Source: an uncultured Clostridia bacterium
GTDB lineage: Bacteria; Bacillota; Clostridia; TANB77; CAG-508
Reading direction: 5' to 3'
NCBI GenBank assembly: GCA_934157035.1
Contig: CAKPHG010000001.1
Coordinates: forward strand, 137,342-201,341
DNA: 64,000 nucleotides
A program made the position numbers and the translations under genes. The first letter of the stretch is position 1; every line of letters begins with the position of its first letter. This document shows positions 6,391 to 57,670 of the stretch, one piece after another. The notes under the pieces were generated by a model that saw nothing but the letters and a program-made list of their open reading frames with translations, searched no databases and was not told the origin of the DNA.

Positions 6391-7923
6391 TTATTTTATA
6401 ATTAGACTTTTTCCTGTCATTTCTTCTGGCTTTTTCAAATTCATTATATCTAGCATTGTTGGTGCTAAATCAGCCAAACGTCCCTCTGCTAATTTAACAT
6501 TTTCCATTCCTACTAATATTAAAGGTACTGGATTTGTAGTATGTGCTGTGTGAGGTTCTCCTGTTTTATAGTCTATCATTTGTTCTGCATTTCCATGATC
6601 TGCTGTTATTAACAATACACCTTCTTGGTTATTTATTACTTCTACTACTCTTCCTACACATTCATCTATTGTTTCTATTGCTTTAATTGCTGCTTCTAAG
6701 TTTCCTGTGTGACCAACCATATCTGGATTTGCATAATTTAAAATTATACAATCATACTTTTTAGAGTTAATAGCTTCCACTACTTTGTCTGTAACTTCGT
6801 AAGCACTCATTTCTGGTTTTAAATCATAAGTTTCTACTTTTGGAGATGGTACTAGTATTCTATCTTCTCCTTTATAGCTTTTTTCTTCTCCACCATTAAA
6901 GAAAAATGTAACATGTGCATATTTTTCTGTTTCTGCAATTCTTAATTGAGTTAAACCATTATCTGAAATGTATTCTCCAAATGTATTCTTTAACTCTTCT
7001 TTTTTAAATGCTATATGAACATTTGGCATTGTTTCATCATAACTTGTCATACATACATAATATAAATCTAAGTCTTTTTTTGTTTCAAATTCATTAAATT
7101 CTTTGTCTACTAATGTTCTAGTTATTTCTCTTGCTCTATCTGGTCTAAAGTTAAAGAATATAACTGAATCATGTTTTCCTATTGTTGCAACTGGTTCTTC
7201 TCCATTAACTATTACTGTTGGTTTTATAAATTCATCAAATATTTCTTTTTGGTAAGAACTTTCTATTGCAGACATTGCTGATGCTGCCTTTTCACCTGTT
7301 CCATTTACTAAAGCATTATATGCTTCTTGGACTCTTTGCCATCTCTTGTCTCTATCCATTGCATAAAATCTTCCAGATATACTTGCTATTTTTCCAACGC
7401 CTTTTTCTCTCATTTTTTCTTCTAGCTTAGCAATATATGTTTCTCCTGATGTAGGTGCTGTATCTCTACCATCCATAAAACAATGTACATATACATTTTC
7501 AAAATCTTTACGTTTTGCAAGTTCTAATATAGCAAATAAATGGCGAATATGACTATGTACTCCACCATCAGATAATAATCCCATAACATGTAAATTAGAA
7601 TTATATTTTTTGCAATTTTCTATTGCTTCTGAAAATTCTTGTATGCTAAAGAAATCCCCATCTTCTATTGACTTTGTAATTCTTGTTAATTCTTGATATA
7701 CTATTCTTCCTGCTCCAATATTAGTATGTCCAACTTCTGAATTTCCCATTTGACCTTCTGGAAGTCCTACATCTAATCCACTTGTGTGTATGTCTGTTGT
7801 AGGACATGTTTTCATTAATTTATCAATATTAGGTGTATTAGCTAATTTTACTGCATTTGCTTTTTCATTTTCATTTTCTCCAAATCCATCTAATATCATT
7901 AACATTGTTAATCTATCTTTCAT
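6391..7923 (-). CDS. gpmI: 2,3-bisphosphoglycerate-independent phosphoglycerate mutase
   Basis: It is 510 aa and starts MKDRLTMLMILDGFG. This is a full-length iPGM in the glycolytic operon position. Confidence 0.9.
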   Translation of the reverse strand: MKDRLTMLMILDGFGENENEKANAVKLANTPNIDKLMKTCPTTDIHTSGLDVGLPEGQMGNSEVGHTNIGAGRIVYQELTRITKSIEDGDFFSIQEFSEAIENCKKYNSNLHVMGLLSDGGVHSHIRHLFAILELAKRKDFENVYVHCFMDGRDTAPTSGETYIAKLEEKMREKGVGKIASISGRFYAMDRDKRWQRVQEAYNALVNGTGEKAASAMSAIESSYQKEIFDEFIKPTVIVNGEEPVATIGKHDSVIFFNFRPDRAREITRTLVDKEFNEFETKKDLDLYYVCMTSYDETMPNVHIAFKKEELKNTFGEYISDNGLTQLRIAETEKYAHVTFFFNGGEEKSYKGEDRILVPSPKVETYDLKPEMSAYEVTDKVVEAINSKKYDCIILNYANPDMVGHTGNLEAAIKAIETIDECVGRVVEVINNQEGVLLITADHGNAEQMIDYKTGEPHTAHTTNPVPLILVGMENVKLAEGRLADLAPTMLDIMNLKKPEEMTGKSLIIK

Positions 7924-7953: not shown

Positions 7954-8703
7954 TTACATTTGCTTTATTATTTCATTAAATTCCTCTACTTTTAAACTTG
8001 CTCCACCTATTAAAGCTCCATCTATATCTGATGTACTAAATAATTCTTTAGCATTTTCCTTTTTTACACTTCCACCATATAACAAACTTATATTTTGAGC
8101 TATATCTACACTATACAAATTTTCTATTTCTTTTCTAATGCATTTTAACATATTATTAGCATCTTCTTTTGTTGCAACCTTTCCTGTTCCTATCGCCCAA
8201 ATTGGTTCATAAGCGATTATAATTTTTTTAGCATCATCTTGTGAAATTTCACTTAATGCTTTTTTTATTTGTTCTTTTATTACTTCTTCTTGTATTCCTT
8301 TTTCTCTTTGTATAGCTGTTTCGCCTACACAAAGTATTGGTATTAATTCATGTTTTAATGCTGATTTTATTTTTTTATTAACTGTTTCATTTGTTTCTGC
8401 AAAATATTGTCTTCTTTCTGAATGACCAATTATAACATATTCTACATTTATACATTTAAGCATATTAGGTGATACTTCTCCTGTGTATGCTCCTGATTCC
8501 TCCCAGTGCATATTTTGTGCACCTATCTTTATATTTGTGTTTTGTGCTGTAAGTAAACTATAAAATAAATCTGTGTATGGAACACATAATATTATCTCAC
8601 ATTTTGCATTTTTAACATTTGGTTCTAACTCATTAATAAAGCTCATAGCTTCATTTGGAAGCATATTCATTTTCCAGTTTCCTGCAATTACTTTTCTTCG
8701 CAT
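7954..8703 (-). CDS. tpiA: Triose-phosphate isomerase
   Basis: It is 249 aa. It has the motifs AGNWKMN, IGHSERR and AYEPIWAIGTG. Confidence 0.92.
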   Translation of the reverse strand: MRRKVIAGNWKMNMLPNEAMSFINELEPNVKNAKCEIILCVPYTDLFYSLLTAQNTNIKIGAQNMHWEESGAYTGEVSPNMLKCINVEYVIIGHSERRQYFAETNETVNKKIKSALKHELIPILCVGETAIQREKGIQEEVIKEQIKKALSEISQDDAKKIIIAYEPIWAIGTGKVATKEDANNMLKCIRKEIENLYSVDIAQNISLLYGGSVKKENAKELFSTSDIDGALIGGASLKVEEFNEIIKQM

Positions 8704-9224
8704 TCCTCTTTTCCTTTTTCCTTTCTAGAATGCACTCTTTCTTCTAGTATTTGATACATTCTTTCAGTTTCTTCTGTATATTTAGTTCTAAATAATGATG
8801 TATTATTTTGTAACTTTCTTAACTCATTTATATTTTCTAAGTATAGTGCCTCTTCTATTTCACCATTTAATATACTTCTTATTCTTTCATTAATTTCTTC
8901 TATACTTAGATCAATTCCTACATTATAAATATGTGTTTTAGTATTTTCCAATTTTTCATGTGGAGTATTTATTGTTCCTAACAATTCAACATATTGTATA
9001 TCTACTAGATCTATTTTTAGCTCTTCTTTTATTTCTCTATATACTGTTTGCATAGGAGCTTCTCCTGTTTTCATGTGTCCAGAACACATATCATATTTAT
9101 TTGGATCTAGTTTTAATTCTTTTGATCTTTTTAGTAATAATACATTTCCTTTTGGATTTGTTATTATAGTTGAGATAAACTCTAATCTATCTCTATTATC
9201 ATTTTTTTCATTCATATTTAACAT
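8688..9224 (-). CDS. Nudix hydrolase
   Basis: It has a Nudix box, SGHMKTGEAPMQTVYREIKEELKI (Gx5Ex7REUxEExGU). It is inserted between pgk and tpiA. Confidence 0.7.
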   Translation of the reverse strand: MLNMNEKNDNRDRLEFISTIITNPKGNVLLLKRSKELKLDPNKYDMCSGHMKTGEAPMQTVYREIKEELKIDLVDIQYVELLGTINTPHEKLENTKTHIYNVGIDLSIEEINERIRSILNGEIEEALYLENINELRKLQNNTSLFRTKYTEETERMYQILEERVHSRKEKGKEECEEK

Positions 9225-10602: not shown

Positions 10603-11690
<1,088 letters not shown>

Positions 11691-11750: not shown

Positions 11751-11779
11751 TTGACTTATGTAAAGTTGTGTGTTATACT
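11751..11779 (+). promoter_or_regulatory. Strong sigma-A-type promoter (TTGACT-17-TATACT), divergent from gap
   Basis: TTGACT is at 11751-11756, there is a 17-nt spacer, and TATACT is at 11774-11779. Confidence 0.55.
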
Positions 11780-11786
11780 TAAGTAT

Positions 11787-12157
11787 ATAAGTTGCCAAGA
11801 GCACTTATTCGTAACTTGTGTCAGTACTATTTAGTATTGATGTGTAAACCAATATTTCAACCTTTTAAAGGAGGGCAATTAATGACAAGAGGACATCCTA
11901 CAACCACATTTAATAATAATATTAAAAAAATGTGATCGGCAGCATCCGGCGCCCAGTTAAGGGCGGAAATCATTGGAGGTAAACCAAAATGAAAAAAATT
12001 TTACGGTTTCCTAGTGGTTTTGTTTAGCTTTTAAGTTAAACAAACAATCTTAAGAAGATCTGAATGTTACCAGCAGTAATTTGTTGGACAGGCTTACACA
12101 AAAATAATATCAGAAAGCGGCGCCATATAAAATGGCGCCGTTATTCTTTTGCTTTTT
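11787..12157 (+). ncRNA. Candidate small RNA or micro-ORF transcript of about 370 nt, unannotated. It contains two SD-preceded micro-ORFs: 11882-11935 (MTRGHPTTTFNNNIKKM) and 11989-12027 (MKKILRFPSGFV).
   Basis: It is bounded by the promoter at 11751-11779 and a GC-rich intrinsic terminator at 12117-12157 (GCGGCGCCAT-ATAAA-ATGGCGCCG followed by a T-tract). There are GC-rich islands (CCGGCGCCC, GGGCGG) in an otherwise AT-rich region. No protein gene of 60 aa or more is present. Confidence 0.4.
12117..12157 (+). terminator. Rho-independent terminator. It is strong on the + strand and may also serve addA on the - strand.
   Basis: There is a 9-10 bp GC stem with loop ATAAAA, followed by TTATTCTTTTGCTTTTT. 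Confidence 0.6.
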
Positions 12158-12204: not shown

Positions 12205-15200
12205 CTATATGTTACATTCTACTTCTCCAATCCATGTTGAATATATAAGTACTTTATTTACTTTTCTTTCTAGTGAATTTTCTAATGCTTCTTTATATAA
12301 ATTTAATTGTTCTTTATATTTATCTATAAGCTTTTGTTCTTCACCTTTTTGTACATAATCAGTCTTATAATCTACCAATACTAATTCATTATCTTTATTT
12401 ATATAATACAAATCTATAATACCTTGCACTAAAATATTATCTTTTTTTGAATATTCCTTGTCTAATCTATCTGCTGTGACATTCATATAAAAAGGTTTTT
12501 CTTTATATATTTGTTTTGCTGTTTTTAAATCTTTCCATAAATCTGACTTTAGATATTTATTCAATGCTGTTATAGATATTGCTTCAGCTTCCTTTTCTAG
12601 TATTATTTCTCTTTCTACTAGTTCTTTTATCATCCTCTTTATATCTTCTTCATTGTATTCTTTACTGCTATCTAATTTTTGAAGGCACAAATGCATTAGA
12701 GTACCTTTTCTACTACTTGAAACATTACCTTCTTTTGTTGCAAAATTTGGTTTTCTAAATTCGGAACTTAATTGTTTTTTACTAATTAATTCTTCTATAT
12801 CAAAAATATTTTCTTCTTGTTTTTGCTCTTTTATTTTGCTTACAGATGTTTTCGTTGGTATTTTACATGAACTTTCAAACTCATACCCCCACTCTAACTC
12901 TTTTTGTAATTTTTCTAATTCTTCTTTGTCTATTTTTATTTTTTCTTGCTTTTCTTCAATTTTTTCTTCCTTTTCCTCAATTTCTTGAGTTTCATCAATT
13001 TTATGTATTTGTAAATTCATTATATTTTCATTTGCAATAAGTAAAATGAACCATTCTAAATATGACATATATTTTTTTACTACTGTATATTCTAATTTTT
13101 GCTTATTATATTGATTATACAATGAAAGAGTATCCTTTTTATCTTGTAAAGACTTTTGAAAATCTTTGCTTACACCTGTTATAATTAATTTTTCCTTTGC
13201 TCTTGTAAGTGCAACATATAAAACTCTCATTTCTTCCGAAATAAGTTCATTTTCTAATCTTATCTTTATAGCTTCTTTCGCTAAAGTCGGAAATTCTATT
13301 TTATTTTTTACATCTATATACTTAGGACCAAATCCTAAATCTTGATGTAATAAAACTAAATCATTTAAATCCTGCTTATTAAATTGTTTACCTGTATTAC
13401 ACAAAAACACAACTGGAAATTCTAGGCCCTTACTTTTATGAATACTCATAATTCTTATTACATTATCATTTTCACCGACTATTCTTGCTGCTGATAAATC
13501 TTTACTACTTATTTTTAGTCTGTTTAAAAAATTAATAAAATTATACAATCCTTTAAAACTAGCCGTTTCATATTGTTTTGCTCTTTCAAAAAGCATTTTC
13601 AAGTTAGCTTGTCTTAAATTTCCATTTGAAAGCAAACCTACATAATTATAATAATTACTTTCTTGATATATTTGCCAAATTAGTTCATCTAAAGGCTTTT
13701 CTTTTTCTAGTATTCTCCAATTTTCTATTTTGTTTATAAACTTTTCTATCTTTTTTCTTAATGTTTCTTCTACTGTTGTTCTAGCCTTTAAAAAAGCTTC
13801 ATAAAAAGAACAATTTCTATCTACTAAACGTATTTTTACTAATTCATTATCTGTAAAGTTTCCAAATGGAGACCTTAAAGTCGCAACAAATGGTATATCT
13901 AACATAGGGTTGTCTATAACTTTTAATAAAGATATTATCGTTTGTATTTCTAATGTCTCTAAATATTCTGATGAAGTATCACAAAAAACCGGAAATCCTT
14001 TACTAATTAACTCTTTTTCATATATAGGTGCATTATTTGCAGTTGAACGAAGTAATATTGCTATATCCTTATATTGTATTTTTCTCATTTCATTATTCTT
14101 TGAATCATATACCTCATATCCCTCTTTTATAAGTTCTTCTATTCTATTTGCCACTATTTTGGCTTCTTCTACATTTTTTTCTATTACTTCATTTGAAGTA
14201 ACATTTTCTTCTTGCTCATCACTTTCCGTTTTCCATATTGATGTATCTTCCTTCAAATCTAATATATGTAATTCTGGTTGTATTTTTTCAGTTTTAGGAT
14301 AGTTTGCTCCTAAATTTAAATATTCTTCTTCGTTATAATTAACATCACCTAATCTTTCACTCATTATTTTAGAAAAACAAAAATTAGTTATATTTAAAAT
14401 TTCTTCTCTACTTCTAAAATTTTTGAATAATTGTATTTTTCTGCCATACTGCTGTTCTTTTGTCTCTATTTCATTTTCTTCTATTTTTTTATAATTTCTA
14501 TATTTTTCTAAAAATAACTCCGGCATTGCTTGCCTAAATCTATATATACTCTGCTTTATATCTCCAACCATAAATATATTGTTTCCTTTTGAAACACTAT
14601 TTAAAATATATTCTTGAATCAAATTACTATCTTGATATTCATCTATTGCAATTTCTATAAATTTTTCCTGCAATTTTTTAGCCACTTGTGTTGGTACAAC
14701 TTTTCCTTCTTCATCTTGTTTTACCAAAATACTTAATGCTAAATGTTCTATATCATGAAAATCTATACGATTTTTTTCTCTTTTCTTTTTGTTAAATCTT
14801 TCTTCAAATTCTAATATAATATCTTTCAAGTTATTCAATATAGTATACATGTTATTTATTACTTCATTTGCTTGTTTTGAAGTATAAATCATACTTTTAT
14901 CTATTATATTATTTATATCTTTCTTTACTTTATCTCTTATGTTTTTTGCCTCATCTTTATAAAATATTTCTATTTTTTTGTTTATTGGCCAAGTATCAAA
15001 TTTTAAGTTTGCAATCTCTGCATAAACTTTATCCCAAGTATCCTCACTTTCATTTAATAAAATTTTTCTTATTCGTTCTATTTTTTCTTTATCTTTTTGT
15101 ATTGTTATTACATACTTTTCTAATTCTTCATATTTCTTTAAATTATTTTCTACTTTTTCTAATCTTAAATATGCTTCTTCAAATTCTTCTGATAATTGAT

Positions 15201-15856
15201 TTAATATAATTTTTCCCCATACTGTTTTTGAAAAATCTTCATCCATTTTTTCACTTAAATCAAACATTTTTGTTTTCTCTTCTAGCCAATTTTTTGGAAA
15301 TGGATTACTCTGAATTTGATTTTCTATTTTTAATATTAGTTCTTTTAAAGGCTCATCTCCTTTATAAGTTGCATATATATCAATTAACTCTAAAAAACCT
15401 TTATCTTTTTCTATATATTTTTCTTCAAAAAGATCATCTAATACTTCCTGTTTTAGAAGTTCCATTTCTGCCGAATCACCTATTTGAAAATTTGCTGACA
15501 TATCAATTTCATAAAAATAATTTCTAATTATATCTAAGCAAAAAGAGTGTATTGTACATATACTTGCTTTGTTCAATAACGTTATTTGTTTTTGTAAATG
15601 AGTATTATTTGGATTTTCTTCTATTTTTTTATAGATAGCATTTAATATTCTTTCTCGCATTTCTGAAGCTGCAGCATTTGTAAATGTTACAACTAATATT
15701 TTATCTATATCTACATTTTCATCTATTATTTTATGTATTATTCTTTCTACCAAAACTGCCGTTTTTCCGCTTCCGTGCAGCAGCTGCAACTAGCAAATTT
15801 GTACCTTTTTCATTTATTGCTTGAGTTTGTTCTTTAGTCCAATTTACGCTTGACAT
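12205..15856 (-). pseudogene. addA: ATP-dependent helicase/nuclease subunit A (AddA/RexA), interrupted by a +1 frameshift in the Walker A motif. The true N-terminus, MSSVNWTKEQTQAINEKGTNLLVAAAA, is in another frame (15856..~15775).
   Basis: It has a UvrD-like helicase plus a C-terminal PD-(D/E)xK nuclease (LVDYKTD). An N-terminal 27-aa ORF starts at ATG 15856 with RBS GGAGAA. An extra C, at plus-strand position about 15777 in GCA-C-GGA-AGC-GGA-AAA-ACG, breaks AAAGSGKT. Confidence 0.8.
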
Positions 15857-22599: not shown

Positions 22600-22857
22600 C
22601 AAACAAAAAGCTCACCCTAATAATAAGGGTGAGCTTAAAATTTCTCACGGTACCACCTTAATTTATAAATAATTTTATTATTTATATCTTAGCTACAGTT
22701 AACGCCTGTTAAACGAGAATAACTACTATTATTTCACTATTCTAACAAAAAAGCTACCTTCTGTTTTCTTTTCTATAAGAAGCTTTCAGCGCAATCACTT
22801 CTTTTCTCTTTTCTAGTAAGTTAAAACATACTCCTCTTTTTTCTTGTTTTTCAATAT
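22600..22857 (-). promoter_or_regulatory. T-box riboswitch leader of valS
   Basis: The minus-strand sequence AATTAAGGTGGTACCGTGAGA (plus 22644-22663) matches the T-box consensus. The terminator hairpin AAGCTCACCC...GGGTGAGCTT plus a T-tract lies at 22605-22637. A promoter (TTGCAT-17-TATAAT) lies at about 22865-22893. Confidence 0.8.
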
Positions 22858-56764: not shown

Positions 56765-57577
56765 TTATGGAATAAATACATAAGCTTCTAATGTTGTTCT
56801 TCCATAATTTAAAGCCTCATCATGAGAACCTAAAAATATGTCTAACTTTCCATTAGTAATGGCTCCACCTCGATCTTCAACTGTAAACCATCCTTCATTT
56901 GGCATATCCGCAAGTGCCGGAATATAAATTATTGTTCCAAACGGATATTTTTTTCCAGCTGCTACAGTAGACCATTCAGTTGCCTTTTTTCCTGATGCTG
57001 TAATTGCATCTGTTTTTCCACAACAAATCTCGCAAGCACAATATGCTGAAGTATCAAAATTCTCAGATATTGGTGTAATTCCCTCTATTTTAGAATTTAT
57101 GTCTTCGGGTATTTCTTGTGGTAAAACTATTTCTTTTGGCTGCTCAATACTACTTTCCACTAAAACTGTTTTTTTTGTTGTCACCTCTTCTTGATTTAAT
57201 TGCATTGCCTCTGTTACTTCTGTTGTGTCTGTTACTTTTACTTGCTCATTGATTGCATTAGATGTTGCTTGCTCTTCTTTTGTTTGGTAATAAAGATTAT
57301 CTTCCCGTAACATTTGTATTTCTTCTTCTGGGATTGAAAGCATGTATGCTTTTACCATATCTTGAACAGTTTTGGGTTCATTTTCTATGTTTTGCATATT
57401 AGCTCTTTCATACTCTTCAATCCTTTGATCCATTTTTTTCATTTCTATTTCGAAATCTACTATTGTCTTAATCGTAAAACCAAATAGAAACAAACTTATT
57501 ACTACCAAAGCTTTAATTAACACAGTTTCAATAAAATCGCAAGCATTTACAATGTCTAACCGTGAAATTTTTTTCAT
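56765..57577 (-). CDS. 3D (Asp-Asp-Asp) domain protein with an N-terminal TM helix
   Basis: The C-terminus contains a 3D domain: WSTVAA...YPFGT...VEDRGGAI...LDIF. Confidence 0.6.
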   Translation of the reverse strand: MKKISRLDIVNACDFIETVLIKALVVISLFLFGFTIKTIVDFEIEMKKMDQRIEEYERANMQNIENEPKTVQDMVKAYMLSIPEEEIQMLREDNLYYQTKEEQATSNAINEQVKVTDTTEVTEAMQLNQEEVTTKKTVLVESSIEQPKEIVLPQEIPEDINSKIEGITPISENFDTSAYCACEICCGKTDAITASGKKATEWSTVAAGKKYPFGTIIYIPALADMPNEGWFTVEDRGGAITNGKLDIFLGSHDEALNYGRTTLEAYVFIP

Positions 57578-57670
57578 TTTCTACTATTCTCCTTTTCTAA
57601 TACCATTTGGTATTTTAGTAAAAAAAACTTATATTTTATATTATACCACATTTTCCATCTTTTTGCAATT

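What the first reader, a model, noticed from the sequence alone, without database searches (positions are those of the whole stretch)
11751..12157. Unannotated transcript of about 370 nt, divergent from gap, with its own promoter and terminator and two micro-ORFs
A near-consensus promoter (TTGACT-17-TATACT) fires away from gap into a region with no ORF of 60 aa or more. The region ends in a very GC-rich intrinsic terminator.

The transcript contains GC-rich islands (CCGGCGCCC, GGGCGG) that could pair with the terminator's GGCGCC arm, giving an antiterminator-like alternative structure.

Two tiny ORFs have good SD sequences: MTRGHPTTTFNNNIKKM and MKKILRFPSGFV. The second contains an in-frame CGG.

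This is a candidate sRNA, a dual-function RNA, or a small-protein operon. It matches no housekeeping RNA I can recognise (not tmRNA, RNase P, SRP or 6S).
Basis: seen in the sequence. Interest (0 to 1): 0.6.

Follow-up and report, generated by a model that had tools for sequence, protein, structure and literature searches.

The report
Small RNA encoding conserved FPSGF micropeptide
Between the addA and gap genes of an uncultured, AT-rich gut Clostridium-like bacterium sits a small, structured, apparently self-contained RNA gene whose 12-codon reading frame (…FPSGF-x-stop) has been kept by protein-level selection in related species, so it is a previously uncatalogued micro-peptide gene whose function is still unknown.

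Summary
There is a promoter (TTGACT-17-TATACT, TG-extended), a GC-rich terminator, no long ORF, and two SD-led micro-ORFs at the stated coordinates. There is no Rfam, Pfam, phage or plasmid match.

Nine further species-level relatives (Gap 92-98 %, AddA 61-86 % identical) carry a homologous unit in the same addA-gap spacer; two relatives have lost it.

Conserved parts:
- an identical 14-nt promoter core;
- two covarying 5' hairpins;
- ORF1;
- two GC hairpins;
- an SD-masking hairpin;
- ORF2;
- a hairpin over the ORF2 stop codon;
- a terminator.

ORF2 (9-13 aa) always ends FPSGF-x-stop. In 11 copies only third codon positions vary (CCT/C/A/G, GGT/C/A, TTT/C). This shows that it is translated and selected as a peptide.

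The rare CGG codon is kept because its GG pairs with the spacer between the SD and the AUG.

Best reading: a structured micro-peptide mRNA, or dual-character sRNA, with gated ORF2 translation. Whether the peptide acts free or as a nascent arrest-type sensor is unresolved.

Side finding: the neighbouring addA carries a conserved +1 frameshift (GCA-C-GGA) inside its Walker A motif.

The parts
11751..11779 (+). Sigma-A-type promoter: -35 TTGACT, 17-nt spacer, TG-extended -10 TATACT. The inferred transcription start is near 11786.
   Evidence: The 14-mer TTGACTTATGTAAA is identical in all 10 lineages whose 5' end is on the contig. The start site is inferred from the position of the -10 element.
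11787..11808 (+). P1, a 5'-terminal hairpin (AUAAG-U-UGC / GCA-CUUAU, loop CAAGA) that begins 1-2 nt from the predicted 5' end.
   Evidence: In the model-based alignment of 7 sequences, 96 % of cells are paired, with one compensatory pair and several G-U changes.
11818..11843 (+). P2, the second leader hairpin (10 pairs).
   Evidence: Seven of its 10 pairs show changes on both sides, and 97-100 % of cells are paired against 22-46 % in slid controls.
11870..11935 (+). SD1 (GGAGGG, 11870-11875) and ORF1 (11882-11935, MTRGHPTTTFNNNIKKM).
   Evidence: The N-terminal M-T/S-R-G/A-x-P is kept in 8 of 10 lineages, with Pro codons CCT/CCC/CCG. The C-terminal half and the length (8-23 aa) are not conserved, and L121 and L124 have different peptides.
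11936..11965 (+). H1 (UCGG-CAGCAU-CCGG, overlapping the ORF1 stop and the conserved GAUCGG) and H2 (CGCCC-AGUUAA-GGGCG).
   Evidence: Equivalent hairpins have different sequences in relatives: H1 is AUCAG/CUGAU in L121 and L124; H2 is CGGCC/GGCCG, CUGGCA/UGCCAG or GGCGAA/UUCGCU. Fold z-scores for this segment alone are weak (-0.4 to -1.7).
11975..12012 (+). SD2 (GGAGG, 11975-11979) and the hairpin that masks it. AGG pairs with the Pro codon CCU. AAACC pairs with GGUUU, which is the GG of CGG plus the Phe codon.
   Evidence: The same SD2:UUUCC pairing is predicted in 7 of 9 lineages. L121 and L124 mask SD2 with a local AGGA/UCCU hairpin instead.
11989..12027 (+). ORF2, MKKILRFPSGFV. It contains the rare Arg codon CGG at 12004-12006, the FPSGF core at 12007-12021, one variable codon, and the stop TAG.
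   Evidence: In 11 copies from 10 lineages the core TTT CCN AGT GGN TTY varies only at third positions. Every copy has an SD, an in-frame ATG, and exactly one codon before the stop.
12016..12049 (+). Hairpin whose 5' arm is the Gly-Phe-Val-stop codons of ORF2.
   Evidence: A hairpin over the ORF2 stop is predicted in most lineages (not in L121; weak in L117). By eye on those folds, the Gly wobble base changes together with its partner (U-A in the window and L095, C-G in L122 and L123, A-U in L124).
12050..12115 (+). Variable 3' region with local hairpins. It is not alignable even with the nearest relatives.
   Evidence: It is replaced by 45-450 nt of unrelated sequence, tandem hairpin arrays or extra micro-ORFs in other lineages.
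12116..12157 (+). Intrinsic terminator (GCGGCGCCAU-AUAAA-AUGGCGCCGU plus a U-tract). It is probably bidirectional and may also end addA.
   Evidence: One search finds it on both strands. Every relative ends the unit with a terminator of different sequence.

Best explanation
This is an independently transcribed, highly structured small mRNA. It is about 370 nt here and 330-920 nt in relatives. Its selected product is the ORF2 micropeptide: 9-13 aa with an invariant FPSGF core, then one free residue, then the stop codon.

Proposed mechanism:
1. A strong sigma-A promoter fires away from gap.
2. The RNA starts with a protective 5' stem-loop (P1), followed by a second hairpin (P2).
3. A perfectly SD-led leader ORF1 loads ribosomes and ends inside hairpin H1.
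4. The ORF2 ribosome-binding site is locked in a hairpin formed with ORF2's own codons 5-8 (CGG-UUU-CCN). Peptide output is therefore gated by RNA structure, and probably by upstream translation.
5. A hairpin covers the ORF2 stop codon, and a terminator ends the RNA before the convergent addA.

Shown here: the sequence features, their conservation, covariation of P1 and P2, and the coding-type substitution pattern of ORF2.

Inferred: transcription, translation, the gating, and 5' protection.

I favour the released peptide as the effector (about 45 %) over a purely cis, nascent-chain role. Its target is unknown.
For: Conservation:
- The unit recurs in the same addA-gap spacer in 9 other lineages (31/33, 34-38). 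The promoter 14-mer is identical in every copy whose 5' end lies on the contig (L090's contig ends inside the element), and the order of parts is the same.

ORF2 coding signal:
- All 11 copies keep an SD, an in-frame ATG, FPSGF, one codon and a stop, although N-terminal length varies from 3 to 7 codons.
- The 15-nt core changes only at three third positions. That means at least 6 substitution events, all synonymous, and none at the 10 first or second positions. The flanking codons change freely.
- By my calculation, only about 20 % of random single-base changes in these five codons are synonymous. Six of six synonymous therefore has p of about 6e-5.
- The +1 frame would read C[N]A as Leu/Pro/Gln/Arg, so only the FPSGF frame is conserved.

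Structure:
- Leader hairpins P1 and P2: 97.6 % of cells are paired against 22-46 % in slid controls. Eight pairs changed on both sides, and 0 of 500 shuffles reached the observed values.
- The 5' UTR fold has z = -1.5 to -3.5 in 8 of 9 lineages.
- SD2 masking is predicted in 7 of 9 lineages.
- Terminators are present in all relatives, with different sequences.

Negative searches:
- No known RNA or protein family matches, and there is no mobile-element match.
Against: - There is no expression data of any kind.
- A 9-13-aa primary product would be among the smallest known bacterial gene products. It has no export signal and no partner gene nearby.
- The family is narrow: one clade, with Gap at least 92 % identical. 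It has been lost in two lineages (L091 with a decayed promoter, and L096), so it is dispensable.
- Part of the nucleotide conservation in ORF2 also serves RNA pairing (SD2 mask, stop-codon hairpin), so coding and structural constraints are entangled.
- The covariation alignment was fitted to the model. It has only 7 sequences, 4 of them close.
- The fixed 'one codon then stop' spacing and the TAG bias (9 of 11) fit a ribosome-bound, termination-linked role at least as well as a free peptide.
Confidence: 0.5

Rival explanations
1. ORF2 is a stand-alone regulatory (arrest-type) micro-ORF. The nascent FPSGF-x peptide, still inside the exit tunnel, slows elongation or termination, possibly in response to a small molecule or antibiotic. 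The stalled ribosome melts the hairpin over the stop codon. This changes the fate of the RNA itself: its stability, its cleavage, exposure of its 3' part, or read-through into antisense addA.
For: - At 9-13 aa, ORF2 is in the size range of known drug- or ligand-sensing leader peptides.
- Conservation is confined to the C-terminal residues next to the peptidyl-transferase centre, and the N-terminus is free.
- Exactly one codon separates the motif from the stop in 11 of 11 copies.
- TAG is the stop in 9 of 11 copies, although TAA dominates in this genome (32 TAA, 11 TAG).
- A hairpin sits on the stop codon.
- There is a Firmicute precedent: the 17-aa SpyA ORF stalls at its UAG stop in a peptide-dependent way and triggers Rae1 cleavage (PMC12407103). 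MsrDL stalls at its stop codon (PMC10314930).
Against: - No cistron lies downstream in any lineage.
- No conserved antiterminator or second masked SD follows ORF2.
- The region 3' of ORF2 is not conserved even between close relatives, so there is no obvious conserved output.
- From general knowledge, peptides this short usually need a tunnel-bound ligand to stall, and none is suggested here.
Confidence: 0.25
2. It is a purely non-coding, base-pairing or protein-binding sRNA, and the micro-ORFs are incidental.
For: - The fold is strong (z = -6.1).
- The leader hairpins covary.
- In L122-L124 there are tandem arrays of GC hairpins, and there is a weak CsrC-like hit in L124 (26.9 bits against a gathering score of 61).
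- The first codons of ORF1 (ACA AGA GGA) are conserved at the nucleotide level.
Against: - The third-position-only variation in ORF2, together with the invariant SD/ATG/stop architecture across indels, is not expected for a non-coding element.
- No single-stranded seed is conserved across clades.
- The CsrC hit is carried by the terminator and one GGA loop, and it occurs in only one lineage.
- By my hand count from the sequence, GGA motifs are not enriched in the window's RNA: 5 observed against about 4 expected.
Confidence: 0.08
3. One reading: a riboswitch- or attenuator-like leader in which the upstream GC island (CCGGCGCC) competes with the terminator stem.
For: CGGCGCC at 11947-11953 is identical to part of the terminator's 5' arm and could pair with the 3' arm. 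The same 7-mer pairing is possible in L095, allowing one G-U pair.
Against: - In L093, L097, L117 and L121-L124 the best complementarity to the terminator arms lies elsewhere and is no better than chance.
- In those lineages both the terminator and the GC hairpins have different sequences.
- Nothing is encoded downstream on that strand.
- The GC island already forms the local hairpins H1 and H2.
Confidence: 0.03
4. It is not a gene at all. The region would be only the addA terminator plus the upstream or 5'-UTR region of gap, with chance promoter-like and ORF-like strings.
For: - Promoter-like matches are frequent in this AT-rich DNA (11 against 7.1 expected).
- The hairpin at 12118-12140 also scores as a minus-strand terminator for addA.
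- The minus-strand fold is also below shuffles.
Against: - Relatives that lack the element (L091, L096) keep the about 150 nt upstream of gap intact, so gap's promoter and UTR do not need this region.
- The plus-strand promoter, the SDs, the ORFs and the terminator U-tracts are conserved in orientation and order across 10 lineages.
- The ORF2 substitution pattern is specific to the plus-strand frame.
Confidence: 0.03

Closest known systems
spyTA (yrzI) small-peptide mRNA of Bacillus subtilis, with the 17-aa SpyA/S1025 ORF
   Same: - A short Firmicute transcript carrying several SD-led micro-ORFs.
- One tiny ORF ends in UAG.
- Its amino-acid sequence, not just its nucleotides, matters.
- The ribosome pauses at the stop codon (PMC12407103).
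   Different: - There is no sequence similarity.
- SpyA is 17 aa and acts as an antidote to a co-encoded 49-aa-class toxin. No toxin-like ORF exists here.
- Rae1 involvement is untested.
Dual-function sRNAs, e.g. SR1/SR1P of Bacillus
   Same: - An sRNA-sized, independently transcribed, structured RNA with a conserved small ORF.
- SR1P binds GapA (PMC5013986, PMC3526287), and the present unit sits next to gap.
   Different: - There is no homology: no Rfam hit, and the peptides are unrelated (39 aa against 9-13 aa).
- No base-pairing function is shown here.
- Adjacency to gap reflects addA-gap synteny, which is kept even where the element is absent. It is therefore not evidence of a functional link.
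Short leader or arrest peptides (MsrDL 6 aa, ErmDL 14 aa, TnaC 24 aa)
   Same: - Comparable length.
- A conserved C-terminal motif and a free N-terminus.
- RNA hairpins that overlap the ORF.
- Proximity of the motif to the stop codon (ErmDL and TnaC from my own knowledge). ErmDL (MTHSMRLRFPTLNQ) even shares LRFP-S/T with MKKILRFPSGFV, which I take to be coincidence.
   Different: - Those peptides always precede a regulated gene and work through an alternative terminator or a masked SD for that gene.
- Here nothing follows ORF2 except a terminator.
Leaderless short peptide pheromones (SHP, ComS/XIP) and the microcin C heptapeptide gene mccA
   Same: Very small primary translation products encoded by tiny stand-alone ORFs (from my own knowledge).
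   Different: - Those genes lie next to their receptor or modifying genes.
- SHP and ComS are 17-25 aa and hydrophobic, and pheromones diversify quickly.
- Here no partner gene is adjacent, and the motif is invariant across species.

Membership tests
Any Rfam 15 RNA family | Covariance-model score at or above the family's gathering threshold | tested here: not met
   - No hit in the window region at gathering threshold. At E up to 10, the best hit is L20_leader at 22 bits against 58.7.
- No gathering-level hit in 8 homologous loci.
- L124 gives only a sub-threshold CsrC hit, 26.9 against 61.
Dual-function sRNA (SR1-like) | Independent transcript with its own promoter and terminator | tested here: inconclusive
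   Sequence signals are present and conserved. No transcript data are available.
Dual-function sRNA (SR1-like) | A translated small ORF under peptide-level selection | tested here: met
   ORF2 shows only synonymous third-position changes in FPSGF across 11 copies. Translation itself has not been observed.
Dual-function sRNA (SR1-like) | Base-pairing regulation of a target mRNA through a conserved seed | not testable with these tools
   No conserved unpaired segment is shared across clades apart from the SDs and ORF2. Whole genomes were not available for target prediction.
Leader-peptide attenuator (erm/msr/tna type) | A short ORF with a conserved C-terminal stalling motif | tested here: inconclusive
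   A conserved C-terminal motif is present. Stalling cannot be tested here.
Leader-peptide attenuator (erm/msr/tna type) | A regulated cistron downstream on the same transcript | tested here: not met
   In every lineage the terminator is followed by the 3' end of the convergent addA. There is no credible ORF of 30 aa or more on that strand.
Leader-peptide attenuator (erm/msr/tna type) | A conserved alternative pairing (antiterminator or anti-SD) that a stalled ribosome would switch | tested here: not met
   The GC-island to terminator complementarity occurs only in the window, L095 and L090.
Type I toxin-antitoxin | A hydrophobic membrane peptide (about 19 aa or more) and an overlapping antisense RNA | tested here: not met
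   ORF2 is 9-13 aa and partly charged, and ORF1 is not conserved. No conserved minus-strand promoter was seen (window only).
RRNPP / Rgg-type peptide pheromone gene | An adjacent receptor or regulator gene, and a hydrophobic exported precursor | tested here: not met
   The neighbours are addA and gap-pgk-NUDIX-tpi-pgm. The 'IIVIG' endings of ORF1 in L090, L093 and L097 arise from the conserved nucleotides GAUCGG, which are read in another frame in the window.
CsrB/RsmZ-type protein sponge | Many GGA motifs displayed in hairpin loops | tested here: not met
   Only the recent 60-nt tandem array in L124 shows GGA loops. By my hand count, the window RNA has 5 GGA against about 4 expected.

The most novel reading that the evidence does not exclude
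ORF2 is a stand-alone ribosome-level sensor or effector tied to decoding of the rare CGG codon. This reading rests on three observations.

1. The neighbouring addA needs a conserved +1 frameshift at GCA-CGG-A inside its Walker A motif.
2. CGG is the rarest Arg codon in this genome.
3. ORF2 keeps a CGG codon in 9 of 11 copies.

Every one of the 8 frameshift-bearing lineages also carries the micro-ORF RNA. A highly expressed CGG-containing micro-ORF followed by an arrest-like peptide could report or modulate tRNA-Arg(CCG) supply. That would tune how much full-length AddA helicase-nuclease is made.
Probability: 0.06. Interest if true: 0.85.

Novelty: new member of a known kind. Interest (0 to 1): 0.5.

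Why it matters
If the peptide is real, it is one of the shortest conserved bacterial gene products. One lineage encodes only 9 aa (MKAFPSGFT). It lives in common but uncultured human-gut Clostridia, where gene callers and RNA-family libraries both miss it.

Its invariant motif, fixed distance to the stop codon and masked ribosome-binding site make it a clean test case. It can help answer whether very short conserved ORFs act as free peptides or as ribosome-bound sensors without a downstream gene.

Work on this locus also exposed a conserved, probably programmed +1 frameshift in a DNA-repair helicase-nuclease. From my own knowledge, programmed +1 frameshifts are rare in bacterial chromosomal genes, the textbook case being prfB.

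Tried and rejected
- **Rfam.** Gathering and E-value scans of the window and of 8 homologous loci found nothing usable.
- **Pfam.** Scans of the extended 47-aa ORF, the 38-aa minus-strand ORF and two ORF1 variants gave no family.
- **Mobile elements.** blastn against plasmids and phages gave no match.
- **Repeats.** A self-search of the window found no second copy. The only notable hit is a 23-nt match of the ORF2 start to the start of an unrelated gene at 57558-57580, judged to be chance.
- **Gap-guided scan of species genomes.** The nearest genomes (84 % Gap) lack both addA-gap synteny and the element.
- **Metagenome pattern scan.** The ORF2 core pattern gave 22 hits, of which only one (L117) is genuine. 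The rest are chance matches in unrelated contexts. The viral scan gave one chance hit.
- **Strand assignment by folding energy.** This failed, because both strands fold well. The strand was assigned from the promoter, SD/ORF and U-tract orientation.
- **Plain MAFFT plus RNAalifold on the leader.** This misaligned P2. It was replaced by a covariance-model alignment, which still failed to recruit L093, L121 and L124.
- **Literature.** A search for FPSGF found nothing relevant.
- **SHP-like reading of ORF1.** Rejected, because the apparent 'IIVIG' ending is a frame artefact of the conserved GAUCGG.
- **Antiterminator.** Rejected.
- **Pseudogene remnant.** Rejected, because the SD-ATG-stop architecture is retained across indels in all lineages.
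Full report
**Observation**

The region 11751-12157 lies between two minus-strand genes. One is gap (10603-11610). The other is a 1194-codon UvrD/PD-(D/E)XK helicase-nuclease of the AddA type (12205-15789).
- A TG-extended sigma-70-type promoter, TTGACT-17-TATACT, at 11751-11779 on the plus strand.
- A GC-rich stem-loop at 12116-12142 followed by a U-tract.
- No ORF of 60 aa or more on either strand.
- Two micro-ORFs with strong Shine-Dalgarno (SD) sequences: ORF1 at 11882-11935 and ORF2 at 11989-12027.

The unit is divergent from gap and convergent with addA. GGCGCC occurs three times in the 64-kb window, and all three are here. GC content rises to 34-37 % against 16-21 % in the adjoining spacer. 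The plus strand folds far better than shuffles (z = -6.1).

A promoter-like match alone means little in this 27.6 % GC DNA: 11 sites were found against 7.1 expected. The case therefore rests on comparison with relatives.

**Known families**

- There is no Rfam hit at gathering level in the window. Nothing in the region exceeds 23 bits at relaxed thresholds.
- There are no tRNA or tmRNA genes here.
- There is no Pfam family for any ORF product long enough to test.
- There is no similarity to plasmids or phages, and no second copy in the window.

**Relatives**

Nine contigs carrying an identical Gap protein are the same species and are almost identical here. One of them (L003) differs at a few positions.

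The nearest species genomes found through Gap (84 % identity) have neither addA-gap synteny nor the element.

Searching with AddA and then fetching the contigs of its 57-86 % identical clusters was productive. A homologous unit lies in the addA-gap spacer of L090, L093/L094, L095, L097, L121, L122, L123 and L124. A metagenome pattern scan added L117; the other 21 hits of that scan are chance.

Gap is 92-98 % identical and AddA 61-86 % identical to the window in these loci.

Two lineages lack the unit. L091/L092 keep only a decayed promoter remnant, and L096 has a 124-nt spacer. In both, the roughly 150 nt upstream of gap are intact. The element is therefore not part of gap's promoter or UTR, and it is dispensable. 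At 57 % AddA identity the synteny is gone.

**Conserved anatomy**

1. The promoter 14-mer TTGACTTATGTAAA is identical in all ten lineages with a complete 5' end.
2. Hairpin P1 starts 1-2 nt after the inferred start site. Hairpin P2 lies about 30 nt further on. The leader is a constant length of about 100 nt.
3. ORF1 has a perfect SD.
4. ORF1's stop lies in or next to a conserved GAUC(G/A)G that forms hairpin H1. A GC-rich hairpin H2 follows.
5. SD2 is paired with ORF2's own codons.
6. ORF2.
7. A hairpin has the last ORF2 codons and the stop as its 5' arm.
8. A variable 3' region follows.
9. An intrinsic terminator of lineage-specific sequence ends the unit.

Transcript length is 328-917 nt.

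A covariance model built from four close sequences recruited L097, L122 and L123. On that alignment P1 and P2 pair in 97.6 % of cells, against 22-46 % when partners are slid. Eight pairs changed on both sides, and none of 500 shuffles reached the observed values. Three caveats apply: there are only seven sequences, the alignment was fitted to the model, and L093, L121 and L124 were not recruited, although they fold into equivalent hairpins.

H1 and H2 differ in sequence between clades but keep hairpins at the same place, for example UCGG/CCGG against AUCAG/CUGAU. Their fold z-scores are weak on their own.

**ORF2 is coding**

The eleven copies are:
- window: MKKILRFPSGFV
- L090: MKNIVRFPSGFT
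- L093: MKAFPSGFT
- L095: MKKILRFPSGFT
- L097: MKNTKRQFPSGFT
- L117: MKKLSRFPSGFT
- L121: MTILRMFPSGFE
- L122: MKTKMRMFPSGFV
- L123: MKTKMWMFPSGFV
- L124, two copies: MTILRMFPSGFL and MTILRMFPSGFQ

Every copy has an SD, an in-frame ATG, FPSGF, exactly one further codon and a stop, which is TAG nine times and TAA twice.

In the 15-nt core the only variable sites are three third positions: CCT/CCC/CCA/CCG, GGT/GGC/GGA and TTT/TTC. The ten first and second positions never change, while the codons on either side change freely. That is at least six substitution events, all synonymous. Only about one in five random changes in these codons would be synonymous, so by my calculation p is about 6e-5. 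In the +1 frame the same variation would be non-conservative. I conclude that ORF2 is translated and that its C-terminal peptide sequence is under purifying selection.

ORF1 is weaker. M-T/S-R-G/A-x-P is kept in eight lineages with three different Pro codons. Its length (8-23 aa) and C-terminus are free, and L121 and L124 encode unrelated peptides. The similar '...IG' endings in L090, L093 and L097 come from the conserved nucleotides GAUCGG, which the window reads in another frame. ORF1 looks like a translated leader rather than a conserved product.

**The CGG codon**

CGG is the rarest Arg codon in the window: 6 of 554 Arg codons, or 0.37 per 1000. Yet 9 of 11 ORF2 copies keep it one or two codons before FPSGF.

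Folding explains this. In the window, SD2's AGG pairs with the Pro codon and AAACC pairs with GGUUU, so the GG of CGG pairs with the CC between SD2 and the AUG. The same GG:CC contact recurs with different partners in L097, L122, L123 (where the codon is UGG) and L121/L124.

ORF2's ribosome-binding site is thus masked in every lineage by its own coding sequence. The rare codon is a structural by-product; any additional pausing role is untested.

The CGGCGCC complementarity to the terminator exists in the window and L095, and by eye in L090. In the other lineages the best match to the terminator arms lies elsewhere and is short.

No gene follows on that strand in any lineage. The long spacers of L122 and L124 contain only tandem hairpin arrays and more micro-ORFs. 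An attenuator or riboswitch is therefore not supported.

**Interpretation**

The best-supported description is a small, structured, independently transcribed mRNA. Its selected product is the ORF2 micropeptide, and its translation is gated by an SD-masking hairpin and probably by the upstream leader ORF.

Two readings of how the peptide works remain open.
- **Free peptide with a conserved cellular target.** For: invariance across species. Against: tiny size, no export signal, no partner gene.
- **Nascent-chain, termination-linked regulatory ORF.** For: size, C-terminal conservation, the fixed one-codon spacing to a mostly-TAG stop, and a hairpin on the stop. There is also the Firmicute precedent of SpyA, which stalls at UAG and triggers Rae1 cleavage (PMC12407103). 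Against: there is no downstream cistron and no conserved output.

I put these at roughly 0.45-0.5 and 0.25. A purely non-coding sRNA, a non-gene and the antiterminator model are each below 0.1.

**Comparison with known systems**

It works like the small-peptide and dual-function RNAs of Firmicutes: spyTA, and SR1/SR1P, which binds GapA (PMC5013986, PMC3526287). It shares no sequence with them. The position next to gap reflects a synteny that persists without the element.

It resembles erm/msr/tna leader peptides in ORF design, but it fails their defining feature, a regulated downstream gene. It is not a type I toxin, an RRNPP pheromone gene or a Csr-type sponge. The only Csr-like signal is a sub-threshold hit on a recent tandem array in L124.

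I therefore file it as a new member of a known kind: small-ORF-bearing sRNA-like genes. It is absent from Rfam 15 and Pfam, and it is restricted to one clade of uncultured gut Clostridia.

**Side finding: addA frameshift**

The neighbouring addA is split by an extra C inside its Walker A motif.

The first 27 codons start at the ATG at 15856 and read MSSVNWTKEQTQAINEKGTNLLVAAAA. They are in the -1 frame relative to ...GSGKTAVLVERIIHK. The site is GCU-GCU-GCA-C-GGA. The 0-frame codon there is the rare CGG, and the +1 codon is GGA, the commonest Gly codon.

The same extra C is present in eight lineages, with synonymous differences around it. It is absent in L091, L095, L096, L117 and L125. In L093, L122 and L124 no start codon exists that could rebuild the P-loop by re-initiation. 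This looks like a programmed +1 frameshift at a hungry codon.

All eight frameshift lineages carry the micro-ORF RNA. Of four lineages without the frameshift, two carry it. By my calculation Fisher p is about 0.09, and the lineages are not phylogenetically independent. L093 and L123 lack CGG in ORF2 despite having the frameshift. A functional link is therefore only a low-probability speculation.

Noticed in passing
window 15772-15856 (minus strand); the same site is present in L001-L009, L090, L093/L094, L097 and L121-L124: addA is interrupted by a conserved extra C inside its Walker A motif (GCU GCU GCA C GGA AGY GGA AAA AC). The first 27 codons (MSSVNWTKEQTQAINEKGTNLLVAAAA) are in the -1 frame relative to GSGKTAVLVERI... 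The 0-frame codon at the site is the rare CGG, and the +1 codon is the common GGA. Eight lineages share the extra C with flanking synonymous variation. L091, L095, L096, L117 and L125 lack it. This is probably a programmed +1 ribosomal frameshift.
   Followed up: partly
L093 about 8000-8140 (minus strand of the locus), between gap and the element: A second small unit has a near-duplicate promoter (TTGACTTATATAAA...TATAAT). It carries a roughly 110-nt sequence with a long GCUACGU/ACGUAGC stem and its own terminator. There is no ORF and no Rfam hit. It may be another sRNA.
   Followed up: partly
L124 6021-6214; L122 6415-6525; L123 6431-6443 (inside the homologous RNAs): Lineage-specific tandem arrays of GC hairpins occur inside the homologous RNAs. 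L124 has a 60-nt unit in 3.2 copies at 96 % identity, with hairpins joined by AAUGCGAAAA. L122 has four GCGCARAURGCGC hairpins between ORF1 and ORF2. They occur nowhere else in the fetched loci. L124 also gives a sub-threshold CsrC hit. L124 additionally has a duplicated ORF2, and L122 and L123 have a third micro-ORF, MKKN(N/Y)TS(N/K).
   Followed up: partly
window 57558-57580 (minus strand): The start of a 271-aa gene (MKKISRLDIV..., with an N-terminal hydrophobic segment) matches the start of ORF2 at 22 of 23 nt, including the rare CGG codon (AAAATGAAAAAAATTTCACGGTT). I judged this a chance match of A-rich 'MKKI' starts.
   Followed up: partly
L105 116-136, L110 and L115 (JGI metagenome contigs): Three related contigs contain TTTCCGAGTGGGTTTACTTAG followed by a complementary CTTAAGTAA, a stop-codon hairpin like the one here. 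The sequence lies upstream of a secreted-protein gene but has no start codon or SD. It is probably a chance pattern hit.
   Followed up: no
window 8688-9224 (minus strand) and the homologous loci: A NUDIX hydrolase gene is inserted between pgk and tpi in the gap-pgk-tpi-pgm glycolytic operon of this clade.
   Followed up: no
window 22622-22853 (minus strand): A T-box leader scores just above Rfam's gathering threshold (94.2 against 93 bits). It is unrelated to the finding.
   Followed up: no
L091 about 7830-7880 (minus strand of the locus): This lineage lacks the element but keeps a decayed copy of its promoter (CTTCAATTTATGTAAATTTATATGTTTATTTC). This indicates secondary loss by deletion.
   Followed up: partly
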